Positions 25,722 through 55,721 of a stretch of DNA of 64,000 bases are shown in pieces (positions within the stretch are counted from its first letter, which is position 1; the number at the start of each line of letters is the position of its first letter). Below the pieces are notes generated by a model. It had not been told where the DNA came from, ran no database searches, and saw only the letters and a program-made list of their open reading frames with translations. Origin of the DNA: a virus (taxonomy: Duplodnaviria; Heunggongvirae; Uroviricota; Caudoviricetes). A program made the position numbers and the translations under genes. The stretch covers positions 8,207-72,206 of the IMG/VR virus record IMGVR_UViG_3300028800_000066, one strand, 5' to 3'.

Positions 25722-26547
25722 GTTGGTTTACCGCCTTTGGCAAAATTTGTCTTCGTTGTGCTTGTAGTTTTGAATCTTCACTTTGTTCTTTAACAGTCTT
25801 TAGAAATTCTTCCTTTCCATATTTTCTTATAAATTCATCAGGGTCTTTCGCACCCTTGAGTACAATCAAAAAAACCTCAACTTCTTTATTGAGCCTTATA
25901 TTTAGAACATTGTTCTTTTCACCAACAAAGAAGTTGGCGCTTCTTTTATTAAAACTAGCCATCGCTTTCCTACCACCCTCATCGTTATCAAATATTAGAT
26001 ATATTCTTGAGGTATATCTTGAAAGCAAATTGTAGTGTTCTTTTGTAAAAGCTGTTCCCTGGCAACCAACAGTATTTTCTAATCCCACTGTATGGGCAGT
26101 GATTACATCAGCATTTCCCTCATACACATAAGCTTTGTTTAACTCACGAATCATTCTTATGGCAAAATTCAATCCGTAAAGATATCTACCTTTATCATAG
26201 GCAGTATTAAAATACTTCGGTTTGTCATCTGCAAGAGTTCTTCCGGTAACAGCAATTAATTTACCATGAGTGTTCCAGACAGGAAAAATCACTCTGTTAT
26301 AAAGAAAGGTATTTCCCTTCTCATTCATAACACGAGCGTCTAGCAAGTCATCTTTGTCATATCCGCGCTTTAACAAAGCGGCAAACAATTGTGAATTTTT
26401 ACCTTGGGGAAAGAATCCCAGCCGCCATTTAGCAATAATTGTTGAATCCCAACCGCGACTGAGATAATAGTCTTTCGCTGTCTGTGTTAAATTTTTATCA
26501 GTAAATTCTACGACAGCATCAAATACGCTTTTCGTAATTAATGGCAT
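25699..26547 (-). CDS. DNA primase (TOPRIM domain, DnaG-like)
   Basis: EGNADVITAHTVG...IYLIFDNDEGGRKA (TOPRIM E...DxD motifs). Confidence 0.6.
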   Translation of the reverse strand: MPLITKSVFDAVVEFTDKNLTQTAKDYYLSRGWDSTIIAKWRLGFFPQGKNSQLFAALLKRGYDKDDLLDARVMNEKGNTFLYNRVIFPVWNTHGKLIAVTGRTLADDKPKYFNTAYDKGRYLYGLNFAIRMIRELNKAYVYEGNADVITAHTVGLENTVGCQGTAFTKEHYNLLSRYTSRIYLIFDNDEGGRKAMASFNKRSANFFVGEKNNVLNIRLNKEVEVFLIVLKGAKDPDEFIRKYGKEEFLKTVKEQSEDSKLQAQRRQILPKAVNQHAKKRNV

Positions 26548-27128
26548 TACCCTATTTCGATGTGAATGAATGTTGATGGGATAAACTTACAAAAATATTT
26601 GTCGGAATCTTTGTTATAATGGAAGAAGATATTGTTTTTAGAAGCCTTCTCTGCATTCACATAAACAACAACATTTCTGCCACTAGGCAATTTGGAACGA
26701 TTGTCTACCAAGCCAAATTGAACTGCACTAAATTGAAGTCCGCCTTTAGACACATTGAAAAAATCATTTTTATCAATGCATCCAAACAAATCTTTGGGTG
26801 TCTTCTCGATTCTTTCAAAAGATTCTGGAACATTCAGGTTTAAAATGACAGTGTGACCAAACTTCGCCTTGACCTTCATTCCATCGAAATAGAATAAATT
26901 CGCCGCATACTTTTTGGTCACACTAATCAATTCATCTTGAGTAAGCTTAAGCTTAAAGCGTTTATCGATGGACGATAAAACCTTAGTAGTTTCGGCGTAT
27001 CCATCTTGGTCCAGGGTAAGACCAGCAACTTTAGGCTTATGCCTTAATACGAACACCATAAAGCGACAAATGTTTTTGTATTTATCGACTAAGCTCTCTG
27101 TGGTGCCAATCTGTTTATTTTTATCCAC
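26547..27128 (-). CDS. hypothetical protein
   Basis: ORF. Confidence 0.5.
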   Translation of the reverse strand: MDKNKQIGTTESLVDKYKNICRFMVFVLRHKPKVAGLTLDQDGYAETTKVLSSIDKRFKLKLTQDELISVTKKYAANLFYFDGMKVKAKFGHTVILNLNVPESFERIEKTPKDLFGCIDKNDFFNVSKGGLQFSAVQFGLVDNRSKLPSGRNVVVYVNAEKASKNNIFFHYNKDSDKYFCKFIPSTFIHIEIG

Positions 27129-30995: not shown

Positions 30996-31010
30996 TATTT
31001 ACCTTAATTG

Positions 31011-31359
31011 TGGAGGCGGTGGGAATCGAACCCACGTCCAAACAACTTTCCAAATTCAATCTACGTGTGTGTTCGGTTTTGCAGTCCGACAACTGTATTC
31101 GTTTTGTCCGTTTCGTTTTCATCTTAGCAGGGCAGAGTTATAACTGTCAGACTAATAAACTCTTACACTGAGCATCCTAAAGCGGCTCTGAAATTCACAC
31201 CTATAGGAGTCGGTGGTCAGAGTAGTCGCTATTAAGCGGCTAGTAGTTCCATTTCTTCGGCATTTCAATTTGTCTGCAAAGGTTTTTAGAGGGCCTTCAC
31301 GACAACTCCCTCACACGCATGAATGTTGTACTGTTATCTGTCGAAACCAAGTCGCCCCC
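31011..31359 (-). ncRNA. ssrA: tmRNA (SsrA)
   Basis: 5' GGGGGCGACUUGGUUUCGACAG. 3' tRNA-like end GGACGUGGGUUCGAUUCCCACCGCCUCCA. Internal tag reading frame ...GCC GAA GAA AUG GAA CUA CUA GCC GCU UAA UAG (AEEMELLAA). Confidence 0.8.
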
Positions 31360-31496: not shown

Positions 31497-32426
31497 CTAC
31501 TCGTCCTTATCCTCGGCCTTAGCGGCGGCGGGAGCCGCCTTGTGACCGTGGCTGATGAGTGAATCGGTATTAATCAAGATGTTACCAGCCTGACCGCCAG
31601 AAACCATCAGAGGATAAACACCATCCCACTTCTCAACCTTTTTGCTCTCAATCAACTCGCGGGTCAAGGAAGCCGACAACTCGCGGTTAGCCATAGCCTG
31701 AGCCTTAGCGCGAATCAGGACAGCCTGAGCTTCACCGTTAGCAACAGCCACAGCCTTTTCGGCCTCGGCCTTTGACTGAGCAACCTCGTTTTCAATCTGC
31801 TGAGCCTTTTGGACGGCGGCATTCTTAGCATTCAAGGCCGCAGTCACACTCTCGGGCAGACGGAAAGCACCAATCAGAGAAAGGTCATCCACGACAATAC
31901 CTTCGGGGGCAACCTGGGCACGAACATCCTTGGTGACGGCGGTAATAAACTCCACCTTCTTGGGCCCGTAAATCTCGCTGACCTGATACTTAGTAGCTTC
32001 CATGTTCATGGCATTACGGACGAAATTGTGCAACTGCTTATCACGAATCTCATCGTTGCCTTCACGGAATTTCTGGAACAGGTCAGAAATCTTCGCCACA
32101 TCGTAATGATAAGTAATGGCGATATCGCAATTCACGACCTGACCCTCAGCCGTCTGAATATTAAAACTCTCATTCGTAGGGCTACCTTCGCTGGGATTGG
32201 CGGTCCAGCTATAATTCTGCTGGAAAGTGGGGAACGGATAAAGTTCCTCATTCACACCGATGTAATAACGCCCAGGCGTAAGAACCTCATTCGAAACACC
32301 CTTCGAACCGCCAGTCAGATAAACCTTCACACCAACATAACCAGCGGCGACCTTCGTGCAACCAGTGGAAAACGCCATCGACATGACGACGAAAGCCACC
32401 AGCATCAAGCTAGTATATTTACGCAT
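31497..32426 (-). CDS. SPFH/band-7 (HflC/prohibitin-like) lipoprotein
   Basis: Lipobox LAFSTGC. SPFH-like core, Ala-rich coiled coil. GC about 50 percent, far above the rest of the window. Confidence 0.75.
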   Translation of the reverse strand: MRKYTSLMLVAFVVMSMAFSTGCTKVAAGYVGVKVYLTGGSKGVSNEVLTPGRYYIGVNEELYPFPTFQQNYSWTANPSEGSPTNESFNIQTAEGQVVNCDIAITYHYDVAKISDLFQKFREGNDEIRDKQLHNFVRNAMNMEATKYQVSEIYGPKKVEFITAVTKDVRAQVAPEGIVVDDLSLIGAFRLPESVTAALNAKNAAVQKAQQIENEVAQSKAEAEKAVAVANGEAQAVLIRAKAQAMANRELSASLTRELIESKKVEKWDGVYPLMVSGGQAGNILINTDSLISHGHKAAPAAAKAEDKDE

Positions 32427-36307: not shown

Positions 36308-36768
36308 CCCAGCTCCGACTTGATAGTTTTAATCATGTCTTCGAATGTGTGAACAAGAGTGATTCCGTACTTATCACAAACAAATTCAACATTGCCTTTA
36401 CGCCAGAATCCTTCGGGGCAACAAACAATCAAACCTTCATGGTCATGAAACAATCCCAACTCCATCAAAGTGATTGGAGCCTTTGTGTTAGGGTCGAAAT
36501 ACATAAGGATATAATCAGCATCCTCTTGACCCTTTAATTCCCAGTCAACCTGTTCAACGAACTTGGGACTATCCATAGTTTGTTTCCAACTTGCATCCCA
36601 AGCATCACGGCGAGGATTTAGAAGAACAATATTATATTCTTCTAGTTCTTTGGCGACTCTAGTTTGCCATTTCTCGGCTGTGTCCATTTCAATTGAACCA
36701 GCCAGGAAAACCCTAGGCATGTCTTCTGGAAACCACTTATAATCTTTCGGCGGTTTAATTTCATTCAT
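36304..36768 (-). CDS. nucleoside 2-deoxyribosyltransferase-like (Rcl/DNPH1-like) protein
   Basis: N-terminal VFLAGSI and ITLMELG motifs, characteristic of the NDT-like fold. Confidence 0.5.
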   Translation of the reverse strand: MNEIKPPKDYKWFPEDMPRVFLAGSIEMDTAEKWQTRVAKELEEYNIVLLNPRRDAWDASWKQTMDSPKFVEQVDWELKGQEDADYILMYFDPNTKAPITLMELGLFHDHEGLIVCCPEGFWRKGNVEFVCDKYGITLVHTFEDMIKTIKSELG

Positions 36769-37397
36769 TATTTTTCCATAAGTGCATGGTGTTTCCAGAA
36801 CTCTACAGCATTTAAATACTCTTTAACATTCAAAGGCTGACCATTGCCGCCAAACCTGATACCCATCTGGTTATTAATCATTGTGGTAGGAGAAATAGGG
36901 GAACGCTTCTCCAACTCAACGTTGATACAGACAATGCCCCAATCAGACTCAATCGGAGTTCCCTCTTTCTTAAGCTGTTCTTTGTTATAAAGGATGACAT
37001 CGACGTGGTGTGATTTCACGCCTTTAACGGGAGCGCCCTTGGGAAACCAACGCTTCAAATAAGGGATTTCATCTTTGGTTCTGGCAACGTAATCAGTCTT
37101 AAGATACTTTTCATTCTTAGAAGTAATCTTAACAATACGACATTCAAGCTGATTGTAAGGTTTGTTGTGCAATGGAACAATTCGACTGAAAGGGTACATG
37201 CCCTTGGGACAATCCTTGGGATATAAATTAAGGATTGCCGTAGCACCCTCCACAATTTCAGGGAGCAAATCAACAATCCTTCCGCCAATCTGAGTCTTTA
37301 CAAACTCAGTAGCTTCGATAGTTTGAATAGGTTTGTGTCTTTTAGTTTTGCGGGCTTTATCGAAAAAAGCCTCCAAGTCTTTACGCCAGTCTTTCAT
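36768..37397 (-). CDS. hypothetical protein
   Basis: ORF. Confidence 0.5.
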   Translation of the reverse strand: MKDWRKDLEAFFDKARKTKRHKPIQTIEATEFVKTQIGGRIVDLLPEIVEGATAILNLYPKDCPKGMYPFSRIVPLHNKPYNQLECRIVKITSKNEKYLKTDYVARTKDEIPYLKRWFPKGAPVKGVKSHHVDVILYNKEQLKKEGTPIESDWGIVCINVELEKRSPISPTTMINNQMGIRFGGNGQPLNVKEYLNAVEFWKHHALMEK

Positions 37398-37420
37398 TTA
37401 TCACCAGAAGAATGTTGTGT

Positions 37421-37493
37421 GCCGTGGGCGGGACTTGAACCCGCAAATTATGCATTCTGAGTGCATTGCCTATGCCATTCGGCTACCACGGCA
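37421..37493 (-). tRNA. tRNA with anticodon CAG (Leu codon CUG) but type-I short variable arm
   Basis: Clean cloverleaf gccgtgg|ta|gcc-gaatggcata-ggc|a|atgca-CTCAGAA-tgcat|aattt|gcggg-ttcaagt-cccgc|ccacggc|a. A73 discriminator. Confidence 0.6.
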
Positions 37494-37757
37494 TTACTTC
37501 AATTCAAAAATCAAAGGTGAACCACCAACAACTTCGTCCACCTTCTGCTTAACACTTTGCGTGTTTTTTACCTTGATACCATAAATCCTGTCGATATGTA
37601 TAAACAAGAAGTATGCATGAACATGAATCACAATATCTTGCAACGATTCGTCATAATGCACATCTTCAACCCAAACTTCACTAGGTTTCTCTTTATAAAC
37701 AGTGGCACCATAGCTAACGGAAGCCAGAACCAAAAGTCCAATAAGTAATTTAATCAT
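37494..37757 (-). CDS. small secreted/periplasmic protein
   Basis: N-terminal signal-like hydrophobic segment. Confidence 0.4.
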   Translation of the reverse strand: MIKLLIGLLVLASVSYGATVYKEKPSEVWVEDVHYDESLQDIVIHVHAYFLFIHIDRIYGIKVKNTQSVKQKVDEVVGGSPLIFELK

Positions 37758-37968: not shown

Positions 37969-38055
37969 TGGTGGGGACGGAGAGACTCGAACTCTCAAGC
38001 CCTTTCGGGCACTGGCTTCTAAGACCAGCGTGTATACCAATTTCACCACGTCCCC
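37969..38055 (-). tRNA. tRNA-Leu (TAG), type II, CCA encoded
   Basis: Loop CTTAGAA. Long variable arm tgcccgaaagggct. Confidence 0.8.
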
Positions 38056-39687: not shown

Positions 39688-39802
39688 TTTTCACCAAAGA
39701 AAACTTTATCATCTACACATAAGTCATTATACCACATAAAGGTAAAAAAGTCAAGCCCTCTAACGGATTGTTAGAAGGCTTAACAGTTTTCCAACACTCT
39801 TG

Positions 39803-39875: not shown

Positions 39876-39889
39876 ATTGAAAATTTCTG

Positions 39890-39969
39890 AGCTATCTGAG
39901 AGAATCGAACTCTCGCTGGTTTCCCGCCCGATTACAAATCGGGTGCCATTCCACTCGGCTCAAGATAGC
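39890..39969 (-). tRNA. type-II (long variable arm) tRNA with anticodon loop TTTGTAA (TGT by canonical numbering), identity uncertain
   Basis: gctatct|tg|agcc..ggca|cccga-TTTGTAA-tcggg|cgggaaaccagc|gagag-ttcgatt-ctctc|agatagc|t. Confidence 0.5.
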
Positions 39970-41470: not shown

Positions 41471-42325
41471 TTATTCAAGATGTTCAACTACACTTCTCAA
41501 GATTTTAGCGGTGGTCTGTCTCAAAGTTCTGTGATGTTTAACCACGCCATAACCATGATACTCTTTATTCATTTCAATCAAAAGCTTGTGAGCGGCTTCC
41601 CTATCTGGACCATGAGGAAGTTGAGTCTTTGTATAAAGTTCATCACAAAGAGCTTCGAGCCTTTTTGCTTCTTCTAGAAAACGTTCCTTGCTCCATTCAC
41701 CCTTTTTGACGGTTAGAACAAGCTGGTTTTCTTTTAGAGGAAGCGTGATTTTGCCAGTTGACAAAAGCTCATTAGCCTCAAGATACAATCTAAGAGCGTG
41801 AGAAGCCATCTTAGTATCATATCCAAACTTCTGAATCAATTCTTGTCTTCCACTTCCATTATCTTCGCCACGCTGTAGTCTCTGGACCTGAGTGTGGCTA
41901 TAACCTTTAAAGCTGTGATAGCTTTTCTTGGACAAGAAGATTTCTTTGTTATCAAAAAGCTTCTGCCCTAGAGGATGTACGTATAACCTGCAATTCTCCG
42001 GAACAAATAATGTTTCTAAAGTATTCGGATTGTTATTTAGAAGCAATTCCATAAACTTTGGAAGTGCATACAATGTGCAATCCATATCAGCGGAAGTATT
42101 CTTCTTTCCAGAACCCGTATCGTTGGTTCTGAATTCTACCTGTTCGATGTTCTTCAATCCCAAAAGATACTCTTCGTCAGGCATGAATACACCAACAAAG
42201 TCCTGGTCGCTCTTGCCTGGGATATTGGTTCCATACATGACCGACCCAACACGTAGGAATAGCAAGCAGTTTTCGACTGCCATCTTCCTCTCGACTGTGT
42301 TTTGTAGAAGTTCTGTATGTTTCAT
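41471..42325 (-). CDS. Pol-beta superfamily nucleotidyltransferase
   Basis: GSVMYGTNIPGKSDQDFVGVF (GS...[DE]xD nucleotidyltransferase signature). Driven by consensus promoter P1. Confidence 0.55.
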   Translation of the reverse strand: MKHTELLQNTVERKMAVENCLLFLRVGSVMYGTNIPGKSDQDFVGVFMPDEEYLLGLKNIEQVEFRTNDTGSGKKNTSADMDCTLYALPKFMELLLNNNPNTLETLFVPENCRLYVHPLGQKLFDNKEIFLSKKSYHSFKGYSHTQVQRLQRGEDNGSGRQELIQKFGYDTKMASHALRLYLEANELLSTGKITLPLKENQLVLTVKKGEWSKERFLEEAKRLEALCDELYTKTQLPHGPDREAAHKLLIEMNKEYHGYGVVKHHRTLRQTTAKILRSVVEHLE

Positions 42326-43567: not shown

Positions 43568-43717
43568 CTTGAACCTCTTTAGTAGGATTTCCAGACAATA
43601 CTGGATGACTACGTAAGAGCAAGATTTGTGCCAATCTTAACTATGTGACTAATGGACTTTCACAATCGATACATTGCAAAATCCATTGCGATTACAAAAG
43701 TGTATGTTAATTTGCAG

Positions 43718-43802
43718 TGGGGAGAGAGGGACTTGAACCCTCACGAAGCTTGCGCCTCAACAGATTTTAAGTCTGGTGTGTCTGCCATTCCACCATCCCC
43801 CC
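43718..43802 (-). tRNA. tRNA-Leu (TAA), type II
   Basis: Loop CTTAAAA. Variable arm tgaggcgcaagcttcgt. Confidence 0.7.
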
Positions 43803-44687: not shown

Positions 44688-44700
44688 GATTACCTCTCGG

Positions 44701-44788
44701 TAGTCGTGTAGGGAATCGAACCCTAGTTAGGCTGTCATCTACAGCTAGGAGTTTATAAGGCTCCCTCGGTGCCACACCTCGCACGACC
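44701..44788 (-). tRNA. 88-nt type-II tRNA with anticodon loop CTTATAA (TAT, Ile AUA, by canonical fold), identity uncertain
   Basis: Good acceptor and T arms. 22-nt variable arm with gctgt/acagc stem. AC stem has a C-A mismatch. A73. Confidence 0.5.
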
Positions 44789-46252: not shown

Positions 46253-46361
46253 CTTTTCGAAATTGCATTTTCATAGCAAAATTCTATTTTAATACCTAGA
46301 GTTCGAAATCTAATTATTAGGAGATTACAGCATGAAATGCATAAAAAGAGCAGTAACTAAG

Positions 46362-46444
46362 TGGGTTAGGAGAGACTCGAACTCTCAAGCCCTTTCGGGC
46401 ACTAGCTTCTTAGACTAGCGTGTATGCCATTCCACCACTAACCC
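46362..46444 (-). tRNA. tRNA-Leu-like type II with anticodon loop CTAAGAA (AAG)
   Basis: Paralog of tRNA-Leu(TAG) at 37969 (same D, variable and T arms). Position 34 is A instead of T. Confidence 0.55.
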
Positions 46445-46457
46445 ATATTTAAATCTG

Positions 46458-46541
46458 TGGCCCAAGTGGGACTCGAACCCACACTCCCCGAAAGGAACCA
46501 GATTTTAAGTCTAGCGCGTCTACCAATTACGCCATCGGGCC
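46458..46541 (-). tRNA. tRNA-Leu (TAA), second copy
   Basis: Loop CTTAAAA. Variable arm ttcctttcggggagt. Confidence 0.7.
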
Positions 46542-46554
46542 ATTTATAAACTTG

Positions 46555-46642
46555 TGACCAAGGAGAGATTCGAACTCTCACGCCCATTACAGGCAACGGT
46601 ATCTAAAGCCGTCATGTCTACCTATTTTTTCATCACTCGGCC
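46555..46642 (-). tRNA. type-II tRNA, probable Leu (TAG) with oversized D-loop
   Basis: Acceptor ggccgag/cttggtc (2 G-U). AC stem acggc/accgt with loop TTTAGAT. Variable arm tgcctgtaatgggcgt. Fold less certain than the others. Confidence 0.45.
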
Positions 46643-46664
46643 ATGCTTGTTGCTTTTTATATTG

Positions 46665-46748
46665 TGGGCCAGGAGGGACTTGAACCCCCACTCCCCGAAG
46701 GGAACCACATTTTGAGTGTGGCGTGTCTGCCAGTTCCACCACTAGCCC
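46665..46748 (-). tRNA. tRNA-Leu (CAA), type II
   Basis: Loop CTCAAAA. Variable arm ttcccttcggggagt. Confidence 0.75.
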
Positions 46749-46761
46749 GTTATTACTTTCG

Positions 46762-46837
46762 TGACCTCCCTCGGATTCGAACCGAGACGTAAACTAGGTT
46801 TGAGCTAGTTCCCTCTACCAAATTGGGGTAGGAGGCC
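46762..46837 (-). tRNA. tRNA with anticodon CAA (Leu UUG) but type-I short variable arm
   Basis: ggcctcc|ta|ccc..ggg|a|actag-CTCAAAC-ctagt|ttacgt|ctcgg-ttcgaat-ccgag|ggaggtc|a. A73. Confidence 0.55.
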
Positions 46838-47562: not shown

Positions 47563-47595
47563 AAATTTGTCAAGCCCTTTTATCGTTTCATAATG

Positions 47596-47669
47596 TGAAC
47601 CAGATGGGACTCGAACCCATATAACTCCCTTACGTTATCCCGCTTCGGAGGCGAGAACGGTACTGGTCC
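47596..47669 (-). pseudogene. tRNA-like element (74 nt) without a D-arm; possible tRNA pseudogene or tRNA mimic
   Basis: Good acceptor ggaccag/ctggttc and T-arm atggg-ttcgagt-cccat. The internal region folds as ctcgc-CTCCGAA-gcggg (anticodon-like CCG) enclosed by cgtt/aacg, so there is no room for a D-arm. Confidence 0.35.
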
Positions 47670-47670
47670 A

Positions 47671-47826
47671 TCACTTTTTCTTTCTAGCTTCTTTCAATCT
47701 CTTTTTTCTATCTTCGATTGCTTCTTGTAATTTCTTAGCGAATTCATCATTTCTTGGTCTGTTTCTGGATTCTGGTCTTACATTGATTTCACTTGGAATT
47801 GGTTTAATTGGCTCAATTTTATCCAT
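47671..47826 (-). CDS. small Lys/Arg-rich ORF (51 aa)
   Basis: MDKIEPIKPIPSEINVRPESRNRPRNDEFAKKLQEAIEDRKKRLKEARKKK. Immediately downstream of the kinase gene. Confidence 0.35.
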   Translation of the reverse strand: MDKIEPIKPIPSEINVRPESRNRPRNDEFAKKLQEAIEDRKKRLKEARKKK

Positions 47827-49444: not shown

Positions 49445-49783
49445 TTATTCTCCCTGTGATTCCTTTAAATCTTGAGCCATATCTTGCAAAGCTTTAATGT
49501 TTCTCTGCAATCTATTCAACATTTCTTTTTCTGCCCAAGCTTTGGCTTCCACCAACTTTATCTTACAATATTCTTCTGTCTTAAACTTAAAGACTCTTGA
49601 AATTTTTTTTCCACGTTGCTTATCTTCAATCCAAGCTTCAATTCGATTATCATCATAACGAGGAATTCCAACGTGTGCGACAAGCATATCATCAAACAAT
49701 CTGTAGATGAAATACCCTTCCTTGGGTCGCCATGCCCCGTAATTTCCAGAACAATCTCGCCATCTAAGATGGTAACTCGCCAT
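49445..49783 (-). CDS. hypothetical protein
   Basis: ORF. Confidence 0.45.
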   Translation of the reverse strand: MASYHLRWRDCSGNYGAWRPKEGYFIYRLFDDMLVAHVGIPRYDDNRIEAWIEDKQRGKKISRVFKFKTEEYCKIKLVEAKAWAEKEMLNRLQRNIKALQDMAQDLKESQGE

Positions 49784-50136
49784 TATACTCCCTCGGGGAT
49801 TACAAATCCAGTCGTAGCATGAACAGTCTTGGGTTGATTGGCTTCAAGCATATCATTGACCAATTTCTCTTCTGCCGCTCTGGCCTTGACTTCTTTTCCA
49901 GTCTCACGCCAAATCTCCGTGATTGACTGACCTTCTTTGTTGTAATTCCAGCCCTTCTCGCTGACTTCCATACCAGCCTTTTTCATACCCTCTTCGGCCA
50001 GAATCACGGGAACGAACAACGCCGCTCCAAGAGCGAATTTCATAGTCTCCTTGATATTCATCGTATCCTCTGAGTTATTTGTGTCTCTTAACAAGTTTTT
50101 GGAGCTTTGCATTTGCCAGGAGTTTCCTGGCTTCAT
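49783..50136 (-). CDS. hypothetical protein
   Basis: ORF. Confidence 0.45.
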   Translation of the reverse strand: MKPGNSWQMQSSKNLLRDTNNSEDTMNIKETMKFALGAALFVPVILAEEGMKKAGMEVSEKGWNYNKEGQSITEIWRETGKEVKARAAEEKLVNDMLEANQPKTVHATTGFVIPEGV

Positions 50137-50169
50137 TTAACTTGGATTTTTTTTCTTTTACTTTTTTCA

Positions 50170-50556
50170 TTACCAATCCAATGTTCCAGCATTAACACAG
50201 GCTACACCAAAAACAGCGCCAACAGCTACATCCAATAACTCTGCCTTGAAATGAGTTTTGTCGTTTTTATGTAAAGCTTCCATCATTTCACGATGTTCTT
50301 CATCTACTACACCAGCGATTTCGTGAGTTGAAGCAAATGTTCCATAACCTTTTTGTTTAAGTCTACGATTAAGTTCTAATCTGAATTCCATAACAGCTTG
50401 TTCAATTTGTTCTTGCGTAATTTCCAGTCTAGCATTAGCCATTTGTTCTCCACGCGCAGGAACTTCCATGTCCGAATCCAGTCCCGCCATAAGGGCATCA
50501 ATTTCGCTCTGACTTAATATATCGTCCACTCTATGCTCTGAGAAGATTTCGCTCAA
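50170..50556 (-). CDS. MazG-like all-alpha NTP pyrophosphohydrolase (putative)
   Basis: ASTHEIAGVVDEEHREMMEAL...ELLDVAVGAVF acidic helix pattern. Confidence 0.45.
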   Translation of the reverse strand: MSEIFSEHRVDDILSQSEIDALMAGLDSDMEVPARGEQMANARLEITQEQIEQAVMEFRLELNRRLKQKGYGTFASTHEIAGVVDEEHREMMEALHKNDKTHFKAELLDVAVGAVFGVACVNAGTLDW

Positions 50557-51550
50557 CGGCTTGACCGTGCATCCAATGTTTCACGGTCTGGATGTGATTC
50601 TTTCTCACATATTTAGCCGCAGACTTTCTAAAATCACCGTATGAAAACTTGTCAGCAATTCTGATTACATATCCTTCTTTGCTCTGCCAATTTTCTTTGT
50701 TGTACAAAGCTTTAATTTTTGTCTCATCATAGATTCCATCATACAAAACTGGAACGCTTTGGATGTTCAAAAGATTAAACCAAGAAGCCGTATCATCCCA
50801 ATCCAGGCATTCGTTCTTTTCATTCCAAACCGAGAATCCCATGAAATAGGTGGGGAGATTATCGTAGCCAATTGAGTGTTTGGCCCAAAGATTCTCACCG
50901 CAGACTCTCCAACCTTCGGGGATATCGTTAGCGATTGCCGCCCAAAAGTTCTTTACCCAATTTCTAGAAACATGAGTGTCACTGTTTATACTTCTTGCAT
51001 GGATGTGGTCACGATACATTGTCGTGTTTTCTCCATCCATTTTTTCTGTAACAATAACTCTTTTACCTTCAAAACTTTTCATGTTCTCAATCATGCGGTC
51101 ATCATCGTTCATGTTTTCCGACCAAGGAACATGGTATGTTCTAGGATATTTTACATAACTGGTAAACTGTCCGAGAACATCAGCTAAAATCTTTTGGACG
51201 CTCAAATCGTAAAACAACTCACCTTTAAGTCTTTGACCATTGGGAAGAATAATGTTTCCCCATTTATCGTAAGTCTGGTCGTGATAGAAATGTTCTGGAA
51301 GAACTGGTTTAGTAATTCCGCACTTCTCACGAACTTGTTCCACAGAAATATTGGTCTTTTCACATTCAATGTGATGTTCTTCGCAAACCGAAGCGCCATT
51401 GTTTAGAAAATAACCGCCATTTCCCCAAATCCTACGTTCAATTATATGGTGTGCATCTGCCGCTGGTTCTCCACAAAATACGCACTTATGACCATCTCTT
51501 TTGAAGACGCCCTCACGGAATTCATCACGAGTGAGCAATTTGGATTCCAT
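50531..51550 (-). CDS. HNH nuclease fused to ATP-dependent RNA ligase-like nucleotidyltransferase
   Basis: N-terminal CVFCGEPAADAHHII...CEEHH. Ligase motif I TEKMDGEN (KxDGxN), motif IV EGYVIR, motif V AAKYVRK. Confidence 0.55.
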   Translation of the reverse strand: MESKLLTRDEFREGVFKRDGHKCVFCGEPAADAHHIIERRIWGNGGYFLNNGASVCEEHHIECEKTNISVEQVREKCGITKPVLPEHFYHDQTYDKWGNIILPNGQRLKGELFYDLSVQKILADVLGQFTSYVKYPRTYHVPWSENMNDDDRMIENMKSFEGKRVIVTEKMDGENTTMYRDHIHARSINSDTHVSRNWVKNFWAAIANDIPEGWRVCGENLWAKHSIGYDNLPTYFMGFSVWNEKNECLDWDDTASWFNLLNIQSVPVLYDGIYDETKIKALYNKENWQSKEGYVIRIADKFSYGDFRKSAAKYVRKNHIQTVKHWMHGQAVERNLLRA

Positions 51551-51553
51551 GAT

Positions 51554-52024
51554 TTAATCCACACTATCAAGATTTGACTTAGGAGCTAATGCTATCTGTT
51601 GGGCGACAGGCTCGACCATTGTTTGTTTTCCGGCCACATTGTCTCTAACCACTCTGCTAGCACTACGCTTCTGTTGAAAATATTGAACATCTGGTACACT
51701 TTTTTCCAATATGTTCTTGAGATAAATAATCCAATAACCTTTTCTGTAAACATTATAATGAGTTTTAGAGTTAAGTTCATTATCTCTATATCTGTTATAG
51801 ACTCGAATATTTTCCGTCCCAGTCTTTACGAAGATTTCGTAATTATAATCATCGTTGTCTTTATGTTCAAAATCAACAATTATATAAGCATCTTCGTAAG
51901 TTAAATTTGTTCCTCTTGGAGATGAATTGACGTTCAAAAGATTTAAGATATCATCCTTAATGCTTTCCGGTCCTACGAGAAAGACCCTGAATTTTGTCAA
52001 CAAATTCCTAAACCAATTCAACAT
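51554..52024 (-). CDS. hypothetical protein adjacent to RNA ligase
   Basis: ORF. Confidence 0.45.
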   Translation of the reverse strand: MLNWFRNLLTKFRVFLVGPESIKDDILNLLNVNSSPRGTNLTYEDAYIIVDFEHKDNDDYNYEIFVKTGTENIRVYNRYRDNELNSKTHYNVYRKGYWIIYLKNILEKSVPDVQYFQQKRSASRVVRDNVAGKQTMVEPVAQQIALAPKSNLDSVD

Positions 52025-52026
52025 CT

Positions 52027-52308
52027 TTAATCCAGAGAATCAAGTGACTTTCTCTTGCCCCAGTTGCTACTGACAAATGTTCGATATTCTGGTGTTTCTT
52101 CTATAATTTGAAATTCTGTATGATTGATGGAGACTATTCTGGCCGAGCCGCCAATTACAGCATTTATTTCTTTTAGACTTAGCGCGTGTCCGAAACCAGC
52201 TTGGACTAATCTTGCGGCCTGAGCGTGATTGCCCGCTTCATACAATTCTCTGGCTGTATTTGTTATAAATTCGCCAGAGATTGAAAAACCCATTGTGAGT
52301 TTTTGCAC
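52027..52308 (-). CDS. hypothetical protein
   Basis: ORF. Confidence 0.4.
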   Translation of the reverse strand: MQKLTMGFSISGEFITNTARELYEAGNHAQAARLVQAGFGHALSLKEINAVIGGSARIVSINHTEFQIIEETPEYRTFVSSNWGKRKSLDSLD

Positions 52309-52321
52309 ACTTACCTCGGAT

Positions 52322-52396
52322 TGGCTCCGAAACTAGGACTCGAACCTAGAACCTCGGTGTTAACAGCACCTTGCTCCACCATTGAGCTATTTCGGA
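52322..52396 (-). tRNA. tRNA-Asn (GTT), CCA encoded
   Basis: Loop CTGTTAA. Confidence 0.8.
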
Positions 52397-52403
52397 ATGC
52401 AAC

Positions 52404-52763
52404 TTACCTAATGCGCTTACCCGTATTCTTTTCAACTCTTACTGCTCTATCATCCCACAATTCAATTAAACCGTGGTCTTTTATATTAGTCACTTCCAAT
52501 TTCTGACCAATATGTTTCTCGCACCAATCTTCAATTCTCTTTCTAATTTCAGAAATACTTTCTTCGTTTCTAGCTGGTTCGGCAACTCTAGCCGTAAAAA
52601 TCTTTACGGTTTTTCCAGAAGCCAGCCAAAGTTTAACTCGTCTCACCATAGCTGGAATTGGCTCACCAATTTCTTTTTTATAACCTTCATAGTAAGCGAG
52701 TGTCCCGTCTAAATCAACACCATACCAACCTTGTTTACGCTCTACCATTATCAAATCCCTCAT
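52404..52763 (-). CDS. HAD-family phosphatase (polynucleotide 3'-phosphatase-like)
   Basis: GVDLDGTLA (DxDGT motif I). KIFTAR (motif II region). 119 aa. Confidence 0.55.
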   Translation of the reverse strand: MRDLIMVERKQGWYGVDLDGTLAYYEGYKKEIGEPIPAMVRRVKLWLASGKTVKIFTARVAEPARNEESISEIRKRIEDWCEKHIGQKLEVTNIKDHGLIELWDDRAVRVEKNTGKRIR

Positions 52764-52935
52764 ATATACAGTCGTAATTATTTTCTATATAACTTTTAGT
52801 TACTTTAATATTGTCTAACATTGTGTCGCCGTGATAAATCATAACTTGAGCTTCATCGCCACAATCTTCAATCACAGTCAATATGCATTTTTCAAATGTT
52901 CTGCTTTTCCATTTAGCATTGAATCCGAAACGCAT
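52735..52935 (-). CDS. hypothetical small protein
   Basis: ORF overlapping the phosphatase 5' end. Confidence 0.3.
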   Translation of the reverse strand: MRFGFNAKWKSRTFEKCILTVIEDCGDEAQVMIYHGDTMLDNIKVTKSYIENNYDCIYEGFDNGRA

Positions 52936-52957
52936 TTCTATCCTTGAGTTAAATTTG

Positions 52958-53029
52958 CTGGCTCTCTAAGAATCGAACTTAGACTCATTCGGGTAACAAC
53001 CGAAGGTTTTACCATTAAACTAAGAGCCA
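52958..53029 (-). tRNA. tRNA-Asn (GTT), second copy
   Basis: Loop TTGTTAC. Confidence 0.7.
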
Positions 53030-53143
53030 ATGATGCCGACTTTCATATCTTAGACGGCAAGCCAGCATTATAACTCAGTAAGCCTACGCTCACATTGTAT
53101 CTGGTCTTTAATTTTTAAAGATTGTACTGTATTATGAAACTGT

Positions 53144-53217
53144 TGGCTCCCGACCAAGGAATCGAACCTCAATTCTGGCATTAACAGTGCCGCGTCCTAC
53201 CATTGAACGAGTCGGAA
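53144..53217 (-). tRNA. tRNA-Asn (GTT), third copy, CCA encoded
   Basis: Loop CTGTTAA. Body differs from copies 1 and 2. Confidence 0.65.
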
Positions 53218-53244
53218 ATGCTTACTACTTCTACATTACAACTG

Positions 53245-53273
53245 ATTATATCACATTTCGCTCTATTTGTCAA
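53245..53273 (-). promoter_or_regulatory. consensus sigma70 promoter P3 (TTGACA-17-TGaTATAAT) for Asn tRNA array
   Basis: rc: ggcTTGACAaatagagcgaaatgTGaTATAATcag. Confidence 0.75.
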
Positions 53274-53281
53274 GCCAAAAG

Positions 53282-53318
53282 AAAACCCCTCCGAACTTTT
53301 TTTAAGGTCCGGAGGGGT
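53282..53318 (-). terminator. rho-independent terminator abutting promoter P3
   Basis: CCCCUCCG-GACCUUAAAAAAAGUU-CGGAGGGG followed by UUUUCUUUUGG. The U-tail overlaps the -35 of P3. Confidence 0.7.
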
Positions 53319-53492
53319 TAATTTAGTGGTTGATGATTGCAGTTTAAACCATTAAACTAGACCCTCTTAGACAATAGATTTCTATTACCCAACCAGAGGT
53401 TAGATATTGTTCGTCCATTGGTTAAAGAGGTTAAAGTCTTCATGATTAAACCTTCCGTCTATTTGTGTAGACAAAGTAGTGCATCTACTTCA
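53319..53492 (-). ncRNA. candidate about 200-nt small transcript between ext -10 promoter and terminator (sRNA or 32-aa micro-ORF)
   Basis: Bounded by the TGaTATAAT element (53498-53506) and the terminator 53282-53318. Contains hairpins GUAG-AUGCA-CUAC and AGGUUUAA...UUUAACCU. Also a possible 32-aa ORF with GGAAGG RBS. Confidence 0.35.
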
Positions 53493-53497
53493 TTACT

Positions 53498-53526
53498 ATT
53501 ATATCAAAAATTATAAAATTTTACCA
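53498..53526 (-). promoter_or_regulatory. candidate extended -10 promoter (TGaTATAAT)
   Basis: rc: TGGTAA-17-TGaTATAAT downstream of ORF 53544..53927. Weak -35. Confidence 0.4.
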
Positions 53527-53543
53527 CTTTTTAATACAAATTT

Positions 53544-53927
53544 TTATTCAAAATCTGACAATGGCATATTGAATTTTGACGAGCAAAAGCTGTTTGCGGC
53601 CTGGACTGAATTATTATATTCCAACAGTAAATCAGGTGGTTGAATGTCTTTTAATTCAGAAACAACGCGCTTATAAATATCTGAAGCTAGTCTATCTCTT
53701 TCCGCAAGTATTCCGCGTAACATTGTAGCTTCGCCACGAAGATTATCGAACTCTGGATAATATTTTTCTTTAACAATTCTCAAATTATCAGAGTGTTCAT
53801 CTTCCAATTTTTTCCTAGCATCTACATAAACTTCGATAATTTTCTCTTTTTCCTGTTCATAAAGCTTGTCAGCTTCCTTTTGTTTCTTATCTAATTCCTG
53901 AAGCTTTTTAGAAGTCGGAAACATCAT
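53544..53927 (-). CDS. hypothetical coiled-coil protein
   Basis: ORF. Confidence 0.45.
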   Translation of the reverse strand: MMFPTSKKLQELDKKQKEADKLYEQEKEKIIEVYVDARKKLEDEHSDNLRIVKEKYYPEFDNLRGEATMLRGILAERDRLASDIYKRVVSELKDIQPPDLLLEYNNSVQAANSFCSSKFNMPLSDFE

Positions 53928-54017
53928 TTTTTATCCTAAGAAAAGAAAACAACCTATTCAAGTTTTCAGTTGTTTGAGTGGCACTGCGAAGCTTACGTCT
54001 TGAACCACTGACTTATA

Positions 54018-55721
54018 TTAACCCTTGATGAAGTCACTCATCACGGCTGGGGCAGATGAATCGAATCCTACCACGTCTAACATTCCAGCATCGTTAGGGT
54101 CTGCAATCGTGAAATCATTCGTAACCATACCAACCACAACTGACTTGGCATTGTTACTAGACTGCTTGCGATATTCTGCAAGAGCCTGATGTGGGTGAAT
54201 TCTTCCAGCATAAGTCTCGTTATCGGTGTAGACAAAGAAAGCATCTACATCTAACTTATTCTGCTTTGCATAAACCATCGGCAAAGAGCAATCAGTTCCA
54301 CGGAAAGGAAGATTATTGATGACTGAGATTACATCATCCAATCTCTTCTTTCCAGAAATGTTCAAGTCAATGAACTCTGTCGAGAATCCCTTGATATAGA
54401 CGTTCTTCTCAACCTTTGCAGTAACCATTGCCATAGCCGCGCTTACCACTCTTGGCGTAAGACCTGGAATACCAGAAATTGAACCGCCGTCCATTGAACC
54501 AGACACGTCCAAGGCCAACATGATGTTCTTTCCAGTTGGCTCAACATTATCAAATGCTGTGTAGAAAGCAGAATCCAATGCGTCCACAACTGTCTGGACC
54601 GGAGTCCAGGAATTTCCACCACGCTCACCGTGACCCTGCTGATAAACCTTCAAGGCCGACAATAACTGAATCGGATGCACTCTCGCCTTCTTCAAAGCCT
54701 CTACATTAGCAAGCTTTTCAGCGACAAGCTTTGAACCCTGTGAAAGCGGTGCAATCAATCCAACTCTTGTCATTGTTGCAATATTACGAATCATTGCAGT
54801 CAATGGCATGTGCGGAAGTAATGCATCCCACACTTCAATGGTGTTAAGTAACTCTGTAGGAACAGCTTCACGAGGAAGTTCGTGTTCTCTAATCAATCCA
54901 ACAATTTCAGAAGCAGTCGTTGCCCTCTGAGCCTGTTCGAAAGCATTAATCATCGGGTGGATATTGACGATAAGCTTTCCTTCATTGTCATAGTGCGACT
55001 TTACCCATGACTGAATCTGCTCGTGCTTCTCGGAATACTTCACCTTTGCCGAATCGTTCTTGGCAGAGACAGGGGCATCCTTACCAGCCTTATACTTATT
55101 CCACGCAACCCACTGATAGATATCATTACGTGCGGCATCAGCGGTCTTCAAGTGAGCAAGACGCAACGCATCACGATGTTCAAAACCTTCACGATTACGA
55201 TACTTAATAACCTGTAATGCAAGGCCATCCAAGTTCTTCTCGTTATACCAACGCTGAACTGCCTTACGCAATCCAGTACCAGTTCCCTTGCCAATGGTGT
55301 CCGCAATCGACAAGAACTGGAACAAATGTGTGGCGATTCTGCATACCTTTGAAAGGTTCTGATATGCATACGCACGAGTAGCCGCATCACCATGCTTTAC
55401 GACAAGCGCAAGAGCAAACACAGCGGGGTCATTCTTTGGAGCGCGACCATTGTGAGAAATTTCCACAATAGTATCAACAGTCTTGCGACCATTTTCCTTC
55501 ACGCACTCCAAGATGCACTTCGCACTGTCCTGTGTCATCTTGTGCTCGGATGCATAATACGAGCCACCCTCGTTTCCAAGAATCAAGAAACGGTTTAAAC
55601 GGGTCCAGTTGTCTACCTTGAATGTAAAGCCACCCGCGCTGTTTGGAACCTGATTGCTTCCGAATACCTTCTCGGACTGGGGTGTAACCTTAGTTGAAAC
55701 GTGCGAAGCATAGTTTGACAT
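54018..55721 (-). CDS. vWA-domain protein with Ro60/TROVE-like architecture (Rsr-like, inferred)
   Basis: C-terminal vWA MIDAS LALDVSGSMDG...T...D. About 400-aa helical N-terminal module. 567 aa matches the Ro60 size and domain order. GGAAGAGGAG RBS. Own consensus promoter. Confidence 0.5.
   Translation of the reverse strand: MSNYASHVSTKVTPQSEKVFGSNQVPNSAGGFTFKVDNWTRLNRFLILGNEGGSYYASEHKMTQDSAKCILECVKENGRKTVDTIVEISHNGRAPKNDPAVFALALVVKHGDAATRAYAYQNLSKVCRIATHLFQFLSIADTIGKGTGTGLRKAVQRWYNEKNLDGLALQVIKYRNREGFEHRDALRLAHLKTADAARNDIYQWVAWNKYKAGKDAPVSAKNDSAKVKYSEKHEQIQSWVKSHYDNEGKLIVNIHPMINAFEQAQRATTASEIVGLIREHELPREAVPTELLNTIEVWDALLPHMPLTAMIRNIATMTRVGLIAPLSQGSKLVAEKLANVEALKKARVHPIQLLSALKVYQQGHGERGGNSWTPVQTVVDALDSAFYTAFDNVEPTGKNIMLALDVSGSMDGGSISGIPGLTPRVVSAAMAMVTAKVEKNVYIKGFSTEFIDLNISGKKRLDDVISVINNLPFRGTDCSLPMVYAKQNKLDVDAFFVYTDNETYAGRIHPHQALAEYRKQSSNNAKSVVVGMVTNDFTIADPNDAGMLDVVGFDSSAPAVMSDFIKG

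What the first reader, a model, noticed from the sequence alone, without database searches (positions are those of the whole stretch)
37421..37493. Cloverleaf tRNA with Leu anticodon CAG but a 5-nt variable arm (type-I body)
Bacterial tRNA-Leu is type II with a long variable arm. This gene folds cleanly as a 73-nt type-I tRNA (7/3/5/5 stems, U33, A37, A73) and carries CAG. A second case (46762..46837, anticodon CAA, type I, A73) sits in the Leu-tRNA sub-array. Possibilities are minimalist Leu tRNAs (A73 is the main E. coli LeuRS determinant), tRNAs charged with another amino acid (recoding of CUG/UUG), or decoys for an anticodon-directed host nuclease.
Basis: seen in the sequence. Interest (0 to 1): 0.75.

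Follow-up and report, generated by a model that had tools for sequence, protein, structure and literature searches.

The report
Short-armed leucine tRNA in a phage
This is a real phage leucine tRNA that lacks the long extra arm bacterial leucine tRNAs normally carry, but such short-armed leucine tRNAs turn out to be common in phages and mobile tRNA gene clusters, so this one is an ordinary member of a little-discussed class.

Summary
It has 7/3/5/5 stems, a 5-nt variable loop AAUUU, anticodon CAG and A73, and scores 67.5 bits against Rfam tRNA. The second case, 46762-46837 (CAA), is also real at 44.3 bits.

The body is leucine-type. Its D-loop GAAUGGCAUA is identical to that of the phage's own long-armed Leu(AAG). 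It also has the A15/U48 pair and A73 that E. coli LeuRS uses.

In IMG/VR, this D-loop with short-arm spacing and a free anticodon gave 82 tRNAs, all with Leu anticodons. The cloverleaf covaries strongly across 53 family members.

Short-armed Leu tRNAs also occur in Felix O1 (three), Proteus phage RP7, Pseudomonas phage PHB09, Aeromonas phage AhP_Mru1 and the Nostoc PCC 7120 trn operon. In a less biased sample they were about a quarter of phage Leu tRNAs.

CUG codons in a conserved phage gene align with leucine, which argues against recoding. The decoy idea cannot be tested here.

Verdict: a new member of a known kind, a minimalist Leu tRNA that most likely reads CUG as leucine.

The parts
37420..37492 (-). 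Type-I (short variable loop) tRNA-Leu(CAG), 73 nt. Anticodon at 37457-37459, variable loop AAUUU at 37445-37449, D-loop GAAUGGCAUA at 37471-37480, discriminator A73 at 37420. CCA is not encoded.
   Evidence: ARAGORN; Rfam tRNA 67.5 bits; minimum-energy fold keeps the anticodon arm; identical in 10 contigs; fits the family alignment A1.
46762..46837 (-). Second type-I tRNA-Leu(CAA), 76 nt. It has a 3-bp D stem with C13/A22, D-loop CAAUUUGGUAGA, a 6-nt variable loop ending in U, and A73.
   Evidence: ARAGORN; Rfam 44.3 bits in the regional search; closest annotated relatives are the tRNA-Leu genes of Felix O1-like phages; 28 viral type-I Leu tRNAs share this D-arm.
37969..38055 (-). Neighbouring type-II tRNA-Leu(UAG). 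Its anticodon loop CUUAGAA differs from that of the CAG tRNA only at position 34.
46361..46444 (-). Type-II tRNA-Leu(AAG) whose D-loop GAAUGGCAUA is identical to that of the type-I CAG tRNA.
   Evidence: Rfam 53.3 bits.
43717..43802 (-). Type-II tRNA-Leu(UAA), with D-loop GAAUGGCAGA and T loop UUCAAGU.
46457..46748 (-). Rest of the Leu sub-array: type-II Leu(UAA) at 46457-46541, type-II Leu(UAG) at 46555-46642 (found by Rfam only) and type-II Leu(CAA) at 46664-46748.
39726..39754 (-). Nearest strong sigma-70-like promoter match upstream (TTGACT-17-TATAAT, with TG). It is the possible start of the transcript that carries the sigma-like ORF, Leu(UAG), two small ORFs and Leu(CAG). This is a consensus match only.
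   Evidence: The tRNA starts 2 nt after the stop codon of ORF 37494-37757 and ends 22 nt before the start of ORF 36768-37397.

Best explanation
The gene encodes a functional leucine-accepting tRNA of the short-variable-loop (type I) kind, which decodes CUG. It is made as part of a polycistronic phage transcript and cut out by the host's tRNA-processing enzymes; CCA is added after transcription. The host LeuRS charges it with leucine. That enzyme ignores the anticodon and does not need the long variable arm. It reads the discriminator A73 and the shape of the tRNA core (U8-A14, the A15-U48 pair, G18G19 contacting the T loop), all of which are present.

Shown here: the structure; the Leu-type body; membership of a large covarying family found only with Leu anticodons; and CUG used at leucine positions.

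Inferred: charging by LeuRS, expression and processing.

The tRNA at 46762-46837 is a second such tRNA, reading UUG.
For: 1. It is a high-scoring tRNA with perfect stems.
2. Its D-loop is identical to that of the phage's own type-II Leu(AAG). Its anticodon loop matches type-II Leu(UAG) apart from position 34.
3. It has A14, A15, G18G19, U48 and A73, the E. coli leucine identity set given in PMC9976931 and PMC6614811. Those papers also say E. coli LeuRS needs neither the long arm nor the anticodon.
4. An IMG/VR scan for this D-loop with type-I spacing and a free anticodon gave 82 ARAGORN tRNAs, all with Leu anticodons (tag 33, caa 24, taa 11, aag 11, gag 2, cag 1) and none of another isotype. 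The genome scan was restricted to NAR anticodons; its 33 tRNAs all carried Leu anticodons and none carried the Phe anticodons GAA or AAA.
5. In 53 distinct family members, 98.5% of cells pair and 19 of 20 pairs show changes on both sides, against 35-47% paired when partners are slid. U8, U48 and A73 are invariant although the search did not constrain them.
6. Isotype HMMs built without anticodon and variable region place the CAG tRNA best with type-II Leu, 30.4 bits against 26.0 for the runner-up.
7. Three of seven CUG codons in the SPFH gene fall in columns that are 87-100% Leu in 107 distant homologues. Two more fall in hydrophobic columns. No single alternative residue recurs.
8. The same kind of tRNA is kept in isolated phages of Salmonella/E. 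coli, Proteus, Pseudomonas and Aeromonas.
9. The Nostoc PCC 7120 trn operon holds four type-I Leu genes. 23 of its 26 tRNAs are reported aminoacylated in vivo (PMC8421152), so at least one type-I Leu tRNA there is charged.
Against: Nothing here shows expression or charging of this tRNA.

E. coli LeuRS did not charge the type-I tRNALeu(CAA) of S. coelicolor in vitro (PMC6614811), so not every bacterial LeuRS takes every type-I tRNALeu. The host of this phage is unknown.

The D-loop has one nucleotide fewer before G18G19 than some of the phage's type-II Leu tRNAs.

The HMM margin is small, and the classifier is only 62% accurate overall. For the CAA tRNA it gave no clear answer.

BLAST's best full-length hits were phage tRNA-Met genes at 78% identity.

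CUG is the rarest Leu codon in the window (4.2% of Leu codons) and two Leu(UAG) tRNAs are also present, so the need for a CAG tRNA is not obvious.

A37 follows G36 where bacterial Leu(NAG) tRNAs normally have G37.
Confidence: 0.8

Rival explanations
1. The tRNA is charged with an amino acid other than leucine, so the phage recodes CUG (and UUG for the second tRNA).
For: The type-I body differs from canonical bacterial tRNALeu. BLAST's top full-length hits are tRNA-Met genes. The anticodon loop CUCAGAA is one base away from the Met/Ile2 loop CUCAUAA.
Against: CUG and UUG positions in the SPFH gene align with Leu or hydrophobic columns, like the other Leu codons. The body motif occurs only with Leu anticodons. 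By the identity rules reviewed in PMC9976931, MetRS, IleRS, ValRS, GlnRS, ArgRS, ProRS and most others need anticodon bases that are absent here. AlaRS needs G3-U70 (here C3-G70). SerRS needs a long arm and G73. Type-II Leu(CAA) and Leu(UAA) tRNAs in the same window would compete for UUG.
Confidence: 0.04
2. Its main role is not decoding. It is a decoy or replacement that protects translation from a host tRNA-directed nuclease or toxin, and losing the long arm makes it invisible to that defence.
For: The window carries RNA-repair-type genes: RNA ligase, RlaP, Ro60/TROVE, a Tpt1-like gene and a tmRNA. Phage tRNAs are proposed to evade anticodon nucleases through loop changes (PMC10264068, listed). 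Type-I Leu tRNAs are concentrated in phages and mobile tRNA arrays. CUG is rare in the phage. A37 replaces the usual G37 in many phage Leu(NAG) tRNAs.
Against: I know of no defence system that recognises the tRNALeu variable arm in bacteria. Type-II Leu tRNAs sit beside type-I ones in the same phage. The A37 feature is shared by both types. The family keeps every feature needed for charging and decoding. A replacement tRNA still works by decoding, so this reading partly overlaps the best explanation.
Confidence: 0.1
3. It is a decaying or non-functional tRNA-like relic, for example a Leu tRNA that lost its variable arm by deletion or a Met-type tRNA with a mutated anticodon.
For: The same array holds clearly odd or degenerate tRNAs: Arg(ccg) at 47595-47680 with a mismatched acceptor, and Ile(tat) at 44699-44788.
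Against: All 20 stem pairs are intact and the Rfam score is among the highest in the window. The sequence is identical in 10 contigs. It satisfies every invariant of a family of at least 53 distinct sequences with compensatory changes. A Met origin does not fit the 3-bp D stem or the Leu D-loop.
Confidence: 0.05

Closest known systems
Type-I tRNA-Leu genes of isolated phages: Salmonella phage Felix O1 (AF320576; UAG, CAA, UAA), Proteus phage RP7 (ON529533; UAA, UAG), Pseudomonas phage PHB09 (OK040171; UAA), Aeromonas phage AhP_Mru1 (PV190393; UAG, CAA)
   Same: They share the 3-bp D stem with an unpaired 13/22 position, a Leu-type D-loop (GAAYNGGCAKA or CAAUUGGCAGA), a 4-7-nt variable loop ending in U, A73 and Leu anticodons. 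RP7 Leu(UAA) shares the T stem GCGGG/CCCGC and a near-identical acceptor stem with the window tRNA. More than 170 Felix O1-like records match the window's CAA tRNA.
   Different: None of these four phages has a CAG isoacceptor of this type among the regions read. Most encode CCA and the window tRNA does not. Identity to the window tRNA is only about 70-78%. In the library searched, no paper discusses these as a special class.
Streptomyces coelicolor type-I tRNALeu(CAA) (Fan et al. 2019, PMC6614811)
   Same: It is a bacterial-world tRNALeu with a 5-nt variable loop that coexists with type-II isoacceptors and a single LeuRS, and it has been shown to be leucylated. The length of the variable loop matters there and its sequence does not.
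   Different: It is a chromosomal, essential gene in an actinomycete. Recognition there does not use A73 and needs a special LeuRS leucine-specific domain, and E. coli LeuRS does not charge it. I did not test sequence relatedness to the phage family.
Long mobile tRNA arrays, for example the trn operon of Nostoc/Anabaena sp. PCC 7120 on pCC7120delta (PMC8421152)
   Same: The operon contains type-I Leu(UAA), Leu(UAG) and Leu(CAA), plus a degenerate Leu(GAG). 26 of the 33 type-I Leu hits in bacterial genomes lie in loci of 8 kb or less that hold six or more tRNAs. 23 of the operon's 26 tRNAs are reported aminoacylated in vivo.
   Different: This is a plasmid or cellular array induced under translational stress, not a phage. 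The paper's text does not say which Leu tRNAs were charged or with which amino acid.
Minimalist E. coli tRNALeu variants and animal mitochondrial tRNALeu
   Same: Both are leucylated without a long variable arm. A73 and D/T-loop tertiary contacts are the determinants (review PMC9976931).
   Different: One group is engineered and the other is organellar, so neither is a natural phage gene. Mitochondrial LeuRS also contacts the anticodon stem.

Membership tests
tRNA (Rfam RF00005) | Cloverleaf matching the covariance model above the gathering score | tested here: met
   67.5 bits for 37420-37492 and 44.3 bits for 46762-46837, against a gathering score of 29. ARAGORN agrees.
Leucine identity set, E. 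coli type | Discriminator A73 | tested here: met
   A at tRNA position 73 (window 37420). It is invariant in 66 of 66 family sequences although the search did not constrain it.
Leucine identity set, E. coli type | Core tertiary nucleotides: U8-A14, the A15-U48 pair, and G18G19 placed to meet the T loop (U54, U55, C56, A58) | tested here: met
   All are present in the sequence. U8 and U48 are invariant in the family. Whether the spacing, one nucleotide shorter before G18 than in some type-II Leu tRNAs, suits the host LeuRS cannot be judged here.
Leucine identity set, E. coli type | Aminoacylation with leucine by LeuRS | not testable with these tools
   Only indirect evidence is available: CUG sits at Leu positions and the body occurs only with Leu anticodons.
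Canonical bacterial tRNALeu (type II) | Long variable arm of more than 10 nt forming a stem-loop | tested here: not met
   The variable loop is 5 nt, AAUUU. It is therefore not a canonical type-II tRNALeu. The literature says E. coli LeuRS does not need the arm.
Phage and mobile-array type-I tRNALeu family | 3-bp D stem, D-loop GAAUGGCAKA, 4-6-nt variable loop ending in U, A73, a Leu anticodon and all four stems paired | tested here: met
   The window sequence aligns without gaps to 52 other members and is up to 74% identical to them. Family covariation: 98.5% of cells paired and 19 of 20 pairs compensatory.
Elongator tRNAMet / tRNAIle2 (top BLAST hits) | CAU anticodon and a 4-bp D stem | tested here: not met
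   The anticodon is CAG. The D stem has 3 bp with G13/A22. The similarity is confined to the anticodon stem, T arm and acceptor stem.
Sense-codon recoding tRNA | The codon read sits where homologues have another amino acid | tested here: not met
   Seven CUG and seven UUG codons in the SPFH gene behave like the other Leu codons. The sample is small.
Anticodon-nuclease decoy or escape tRNA | Resistance to, or titration of, a host tRNA nuclease | not testable with these tools
   Only context is available: RNA-repair-type genes lie nearby.

The most novel reading that the evidence does not exclude
Short-armed Leu tRNAs may form a distinct lineage that circulates in phages and mobile tRNA arrays, making up roughly a quarter of phage Leu tRNAs but almost absent from bacterial core genes. 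Loss of the long arm, together with A37 replacing G37, might be selected because it makes these tRNAs insensitive to host toxins or defence nucleases, or independent of host modification enzymes, that act on the cell's own type-II tRNALeu. They would still be charged by the host LeuRS.
Probability: 0.15. Interest if true: 0.7.

Novelty: new member of a known kind. Interest (0 to 1): 0.33.

Why it matters
For this window it matters little. The two tRNAs are normal parts of a near-complete phage tRNA set and do not signal a change of genetic code.

The wider pattern is more useful. Reviews state that tRNALeu has a long variable arm everywhere except animal mitochondria (PMC9976931), and S. coelicolor is presented as a rare exception. 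Here, short-armed Leu tRNAs appear in about 110 viral contigs, in classic phages such as Felix O1, and in mobile tRNA arrays.

That gives natural substrates for studying how ordinary bacterial LeuRS enzymes read tRNA shape. It is a caution for isotype-based annotation of phage tRNAs. It also raises the question of why mobile elements favour the short form.

Tried and rejected
- An exact search of IMG/VR for the anticodon arm found nothing.
- A protein-guided search with the neighbouring DUF3228 gene found nothing.
- Looking up that protein's contigs returned only identical copies of the tRNA, so there was no variation to study.
- More distant relatives reached through SPFH homologues (L332 from a 364-kb contig, and L333) carry no matching tRNA.
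- A near-identity search of GenBank phages found no relative of the region.
- Home-made isotype HMMs had modest power: 62% cross-validated accuracy. They gave only a 4-bit margin for CAG and no call for CAA, so I did not lean on them.
- The second D-loop pattern (CAAUUUGGYAGA) is not specific to Leu. It also hits Pro, Thr, Lys and Gly tRNAs that have 4-bp D stems. I used those loci as a less biased sample instead.
- The Met-derived reading suggested by BLAST was rejected on D-arm architecture.
- The plus-strand reading (anticodon CUG, Gln) was rejected. There is no tRNA call on that strand, the canonical T loop and GG D-loop are on the minus strand, and every gene in the window is on the minus strand.
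- Five literature searches found no paper describing short-armed Leu tRNAs in phages. This is weak evidence of absence, because the library is limited.
- The first 50 kb of the Nostoc delta plasmid held no tRNAs; the operon lies in the last 6 kb.

Full report
**What is there**

The window is part of a large uncultured phage. Every gene is on the minus strand and GC content is about 39%. It contains a terminase gene, a tmRNA and a 33-kb stretch holding 41 tRNA genes called by ARAGORN, mixed with small ORFs.

The finding corresponds to a tRNA on the minus strand at 37420-37492. ARAGORN calls it tRNA-Leu(cag). Rfam's tRNA model scores it at 67.5 bits, among the best in the window.

- a 7-bp acceptor stem with no mismatch;
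- a 3-bp D stem with G13/A22 unpaired;
- a 5-bp anticodon stem and the loop CU-CAG-AA;
- a 5-nt variable loop AAUUU;
- a 5-bp T stem with T loop UUCAAGU;
- discriminator A73, with no encoded CCA.

The minimum-energy fold keeps the acceptor, anticodon and T arms, so no alternative fold changes the anticodon.

The second tRNA, Leu(CAA) at 46762-46837, is also real. It reaches 44.3 bits when its region is searched alone.

The CAG tRNA is identical in ten metagenome contigs from several samples. It starts two bases after the stop codon of one ORF and ends 22 bases before the start of the next. It is therefore probably cut out of a polycistronic transcript. The nearest strong promoter-like site lies about 2.2 kb upstream.

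**Which isotype the body belongs to**

The D-loop GAAUGGCAUA is identical to that of the phage's own long-armed Leu(AAG) at 46361-46444. It is one base from that of Leu(UAA) at 43717-43802. The anticodon loop matches the neighbouring long-armed Leu(UAG) except at position 34.

The sequence carries U8, A14, A15, G18G19, U48 and A73. These are the elements reported to define leucine identity for E. coli LeuRS. The same reports say the anticodon and the long variable arm are not needed (PMC9976931; PMC6614811).

I then asked whether this body is tied to leucine anticodons in nature. An IMG/VR scan used the D-loop, short-arm spacing and an unconstrained anticodon. Every match that ARAGORN accepted as a tRNA, 82 in all, had a Leu anticodon (UAG 33, CAA 24, UAA 11, AAG 11, GAG 2, CAG 1). 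The remaining matches were chance hits in coding sequence or tRNAs cut off by a locus end.

The genome scan used the narrower NAR-anticodon pattern on one genome per species. It gave 33 tRNAs. All had Leu anticodons and none had the Phe anticodons GAA or AAA, which the pattern also allowed.

In an alignment of 53 distinct members including the window tRNA:
- 98.5% of base-pair cells are standard pairs;
- 19 of 20 pairs change on both sides;
- only 35-47% pair when partners are slid by one to three columns.

U8, U48 and A73 are invariant although the search did not fix them.

My own isotype HMMs were built without anticodon and variable region, with long-armed Leu tRNAs as the only Leu training set. 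They rank the CAG tRNA first with Leu, but by only 4 bits. The classifier is 62% accurate overall. It gave no clear call for the CAA tRNA. I treat this as weak support only.

**How common the type is**

A sensitive BLAST of the tRNA against GenBank phages first showed short-armed Leu tRNAs in Proteus phage RP7 (two) and Pseudomonas phage PHB09 (one).

The window's CAA tRNA is most similar to the tRNA-Leu genes of Felix O1-like phages of Salmonella, Escherichia, Shigella and Citrobacter, with 171 matching records. Felix O1 itself has three short-armed Leu tRNAs: UAG, CAA and UAA. Aeromonas phage AhP_Mru1 has two. T5 has a long-armed one.

A second IMG/VR scan, with the CAA tRNA's D-loop, gave 28 more short-armed Leu tRNAs, four of them CAG. 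That pattern also hit Pro, Thr, Lys and Gly tRNAs. This gave 44 viral loci chosen without regard to Leu. In those loci, 10 of 36 Leu tRNAs were short-armed, and one of the ten is a doubtful call. Several phages, like this one, carry both types.

In bacterial genomes the type appears mostly inside dense tRNA arrays: 26 of 33 hits lie in loci of 8 kb or less that hold six or more tRNAs.

The trn operon on plasmid pCC7120delta of Nostoc sp. PCC 7120 contains short-armed Leu(UAA), Leu(UAG) and Leu(CAA), plus a degenerate Leu(GAG). A published study reports that 23 of its 26 tRNAs are aminoacylated in vivo and the other three are pseudogenes (PMC8421152). So at least one short-armed Leu tRNA there is charged. 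The amino acid was not stated.

*Recoding.* CUG is the rarest Leu codon in 61 long ORFs of the window (46 codons, 4.2% of Leu). UUG is the commonest at 32%.

The SPFH/Band 7 gene at 31497-32426 has seven CUG codons. Against 107 homologues of 57% identity or less:
- three CUG positions are 87-100% Leu;
- two are hydrophobic (I/V/L and W/L/F);
- two lie in variable columns.

The UUG, CUU and CUC codons of the same gene show the same spread. No alternative residue recurs.

Published identity rules also leave little room. Most synthetases need anticodon bases that CAG lacks. AlaRS needs G3-U70. SerRS needs a long arm and G73 (PMC9976931). LeuRS is the one enzyme that fits. I therefore consider recoding unlikely.

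*Decoy or escape.* This idea cannot be tested here. The window does hold an RNA ligase, RlaP, a Ro60/TROVE protein, a Tpt1-like gene and a tmRNA. This fits a phage that defends its translation apparatus. But long-armed Leu tRNAs sit beside the short-armed ones, and I know of no bacterial defence that reads the Leu variable arm.

**Caveats**

- Charging and expression are inferred and were not shown here.
- E. coli LeuRS failed to charge the S. coelicolor short-armed tRNALeu in vitro, so acceptance depends on the tRNA-enzyme pair.
- The host here is unknown.
- The retention of three such genes across Felix O1-like phages of enterobacteria suggests that E. coli-type LeuRS can use the phage family, but that is inference.
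- A37 follows G36 in this tRNA. From my own knowledge, bacterial CUN-reading Leu tRNAs normally have G37, methylated by TrmD. In the phage sample, A37 is frequent in both short-armed and long-armed Leu(NAG) tRNAs.

**Comparison with what is known, and verdict**

Short-armed tRNALeu is a known kind. It occurs in animal mitochondria, in S. coelicolor tRNALeu(CAA) (PMC6614811) and in engineered minimal E. coli tRNALeu. Examples sit, annotated simply as tRNA-Leu, in many public phage genomes.

Five searches of the paper library found no description of the phage and mobile-array class as such. The library is limited, so this is weak evidence.

The window's two tRNAs are new members of that kind. 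Its premise that such a body is anomalous does not hold for phages. Interest in this locus is modest; the broader pattern deserves a proper census.

Noticed in passing
window 31008-31359 (-): A phage-encoded tmRNA lies at the edge of the tRNA array (Rfam RF00023, 116.7 bits, full length). ARAGORN did not report it.
   Followed up: no
window 54018-55721, 50531-51550, 41471-42325, about 26547-27128 (all -): An RNA-repair-type gene set is scattered through the tRNA region: Ro60/TROVE with a vWA domain, an RNA ligase (PF09414), RlaP and a Tpt1-like RNA 2'-phosphotransferase. Bacterial Ro60 usually comes with a tRNA-like Y RNA, and none was found at the Rfam gathering score.
   Followed up: partly
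window 44699-44788 (-): ARAGORN calls a 90-nt tRNA-Ile(UAU) with a long variable arm and a weak D arm. Rfam does not report it at the gathering score. It could be a type-II body with a non-Leu/Ser/Tyr anticodon, a tRNA-like RNA or a false call.
   Followed up: no
window 47595-47680 (-) and 39889-39969 (-): A tRNA-Arg(CCG) has a long variable arm and two mismatches in the acceptor stem (Rfam 32.2 bits, barely above threshold) and is probably degenerate. A tRNA-Thr(UGU) has a 12-nt variable loop (51.8 bits).
   Followed up: no
window 46555-46642 (-): An extra long-armed tRNA, anticodon UAG by the Rfam alignment, scores 37.1 bits in Rfam but is missed by ARAGORN. It raises the number of Leu tRNAs in the window to eight.
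   Followed up: partly
window 31387-63985 (-): The tRNA genes are arranged largely in blocks by amino acid: Arg x4, Asn x3, Lys x4, Glu x3 and a Leu block. This suggests growth by local duplication and anticodon change.
   Followed up: no
window 37420-37492, 37969-38055, 46361-46444; viral loci L212-L291: Leu tRNAs that read CUN codons often have A37 after G36 instead of the G37 usual in bacteria (24 A against 22 G in the viral sample), in both short-armed and long-armed forms. Leu(AAG), with A34, is also frequent.
   Followed up: partly
window 31497-32426 (-): The SPFH/Band 7 gene holds 7 of the 46 CUG codons counted in 61 ORFs. This may point to recent acquisition from a host with different codon usage.
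   Followed up: no
L335 (Nostoc sp. PCC 7120 pCC7120delta, record positions 49500-55414), locus 1054-1590: All Leu genes of the trn operon are short-armed: UAA, UAG, CAA and a degenerate GAG. The operon also has a 71-nt Ser(CGA) without a long arm.
   Followed up: partly
L159-L211 (bacterial genome contigs): Short-armed Leu tRNAs in bacterial assemblies (Ruminococcus, Kordia, Aquimarina, cyanobacteria, Solibacteraceae and others) sit in arrays of up to 24 tRNAs within 8 kb. Some arrays carry four Leu isoacceptors in a row.
   Followed up: partly
L332 (NCBI JAWVHA010000063.1, a 364-kb contig) and L333: More distant relatives of this phage, with SPFH proteins 64-68% identical, are jumbo-sized. 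They encode release-factor-like proteins (PCRF/RF-1), RNA ligases and ClpP.
   Followed up: no
L337 (Aeromonas phage AhP_Mru1), locus 842-916 and 1739-1817: Two tRNAs annotated as suppressor tRNAs lie in the same cluster as its short-armed Leu tRNAs.
   Followed up: no
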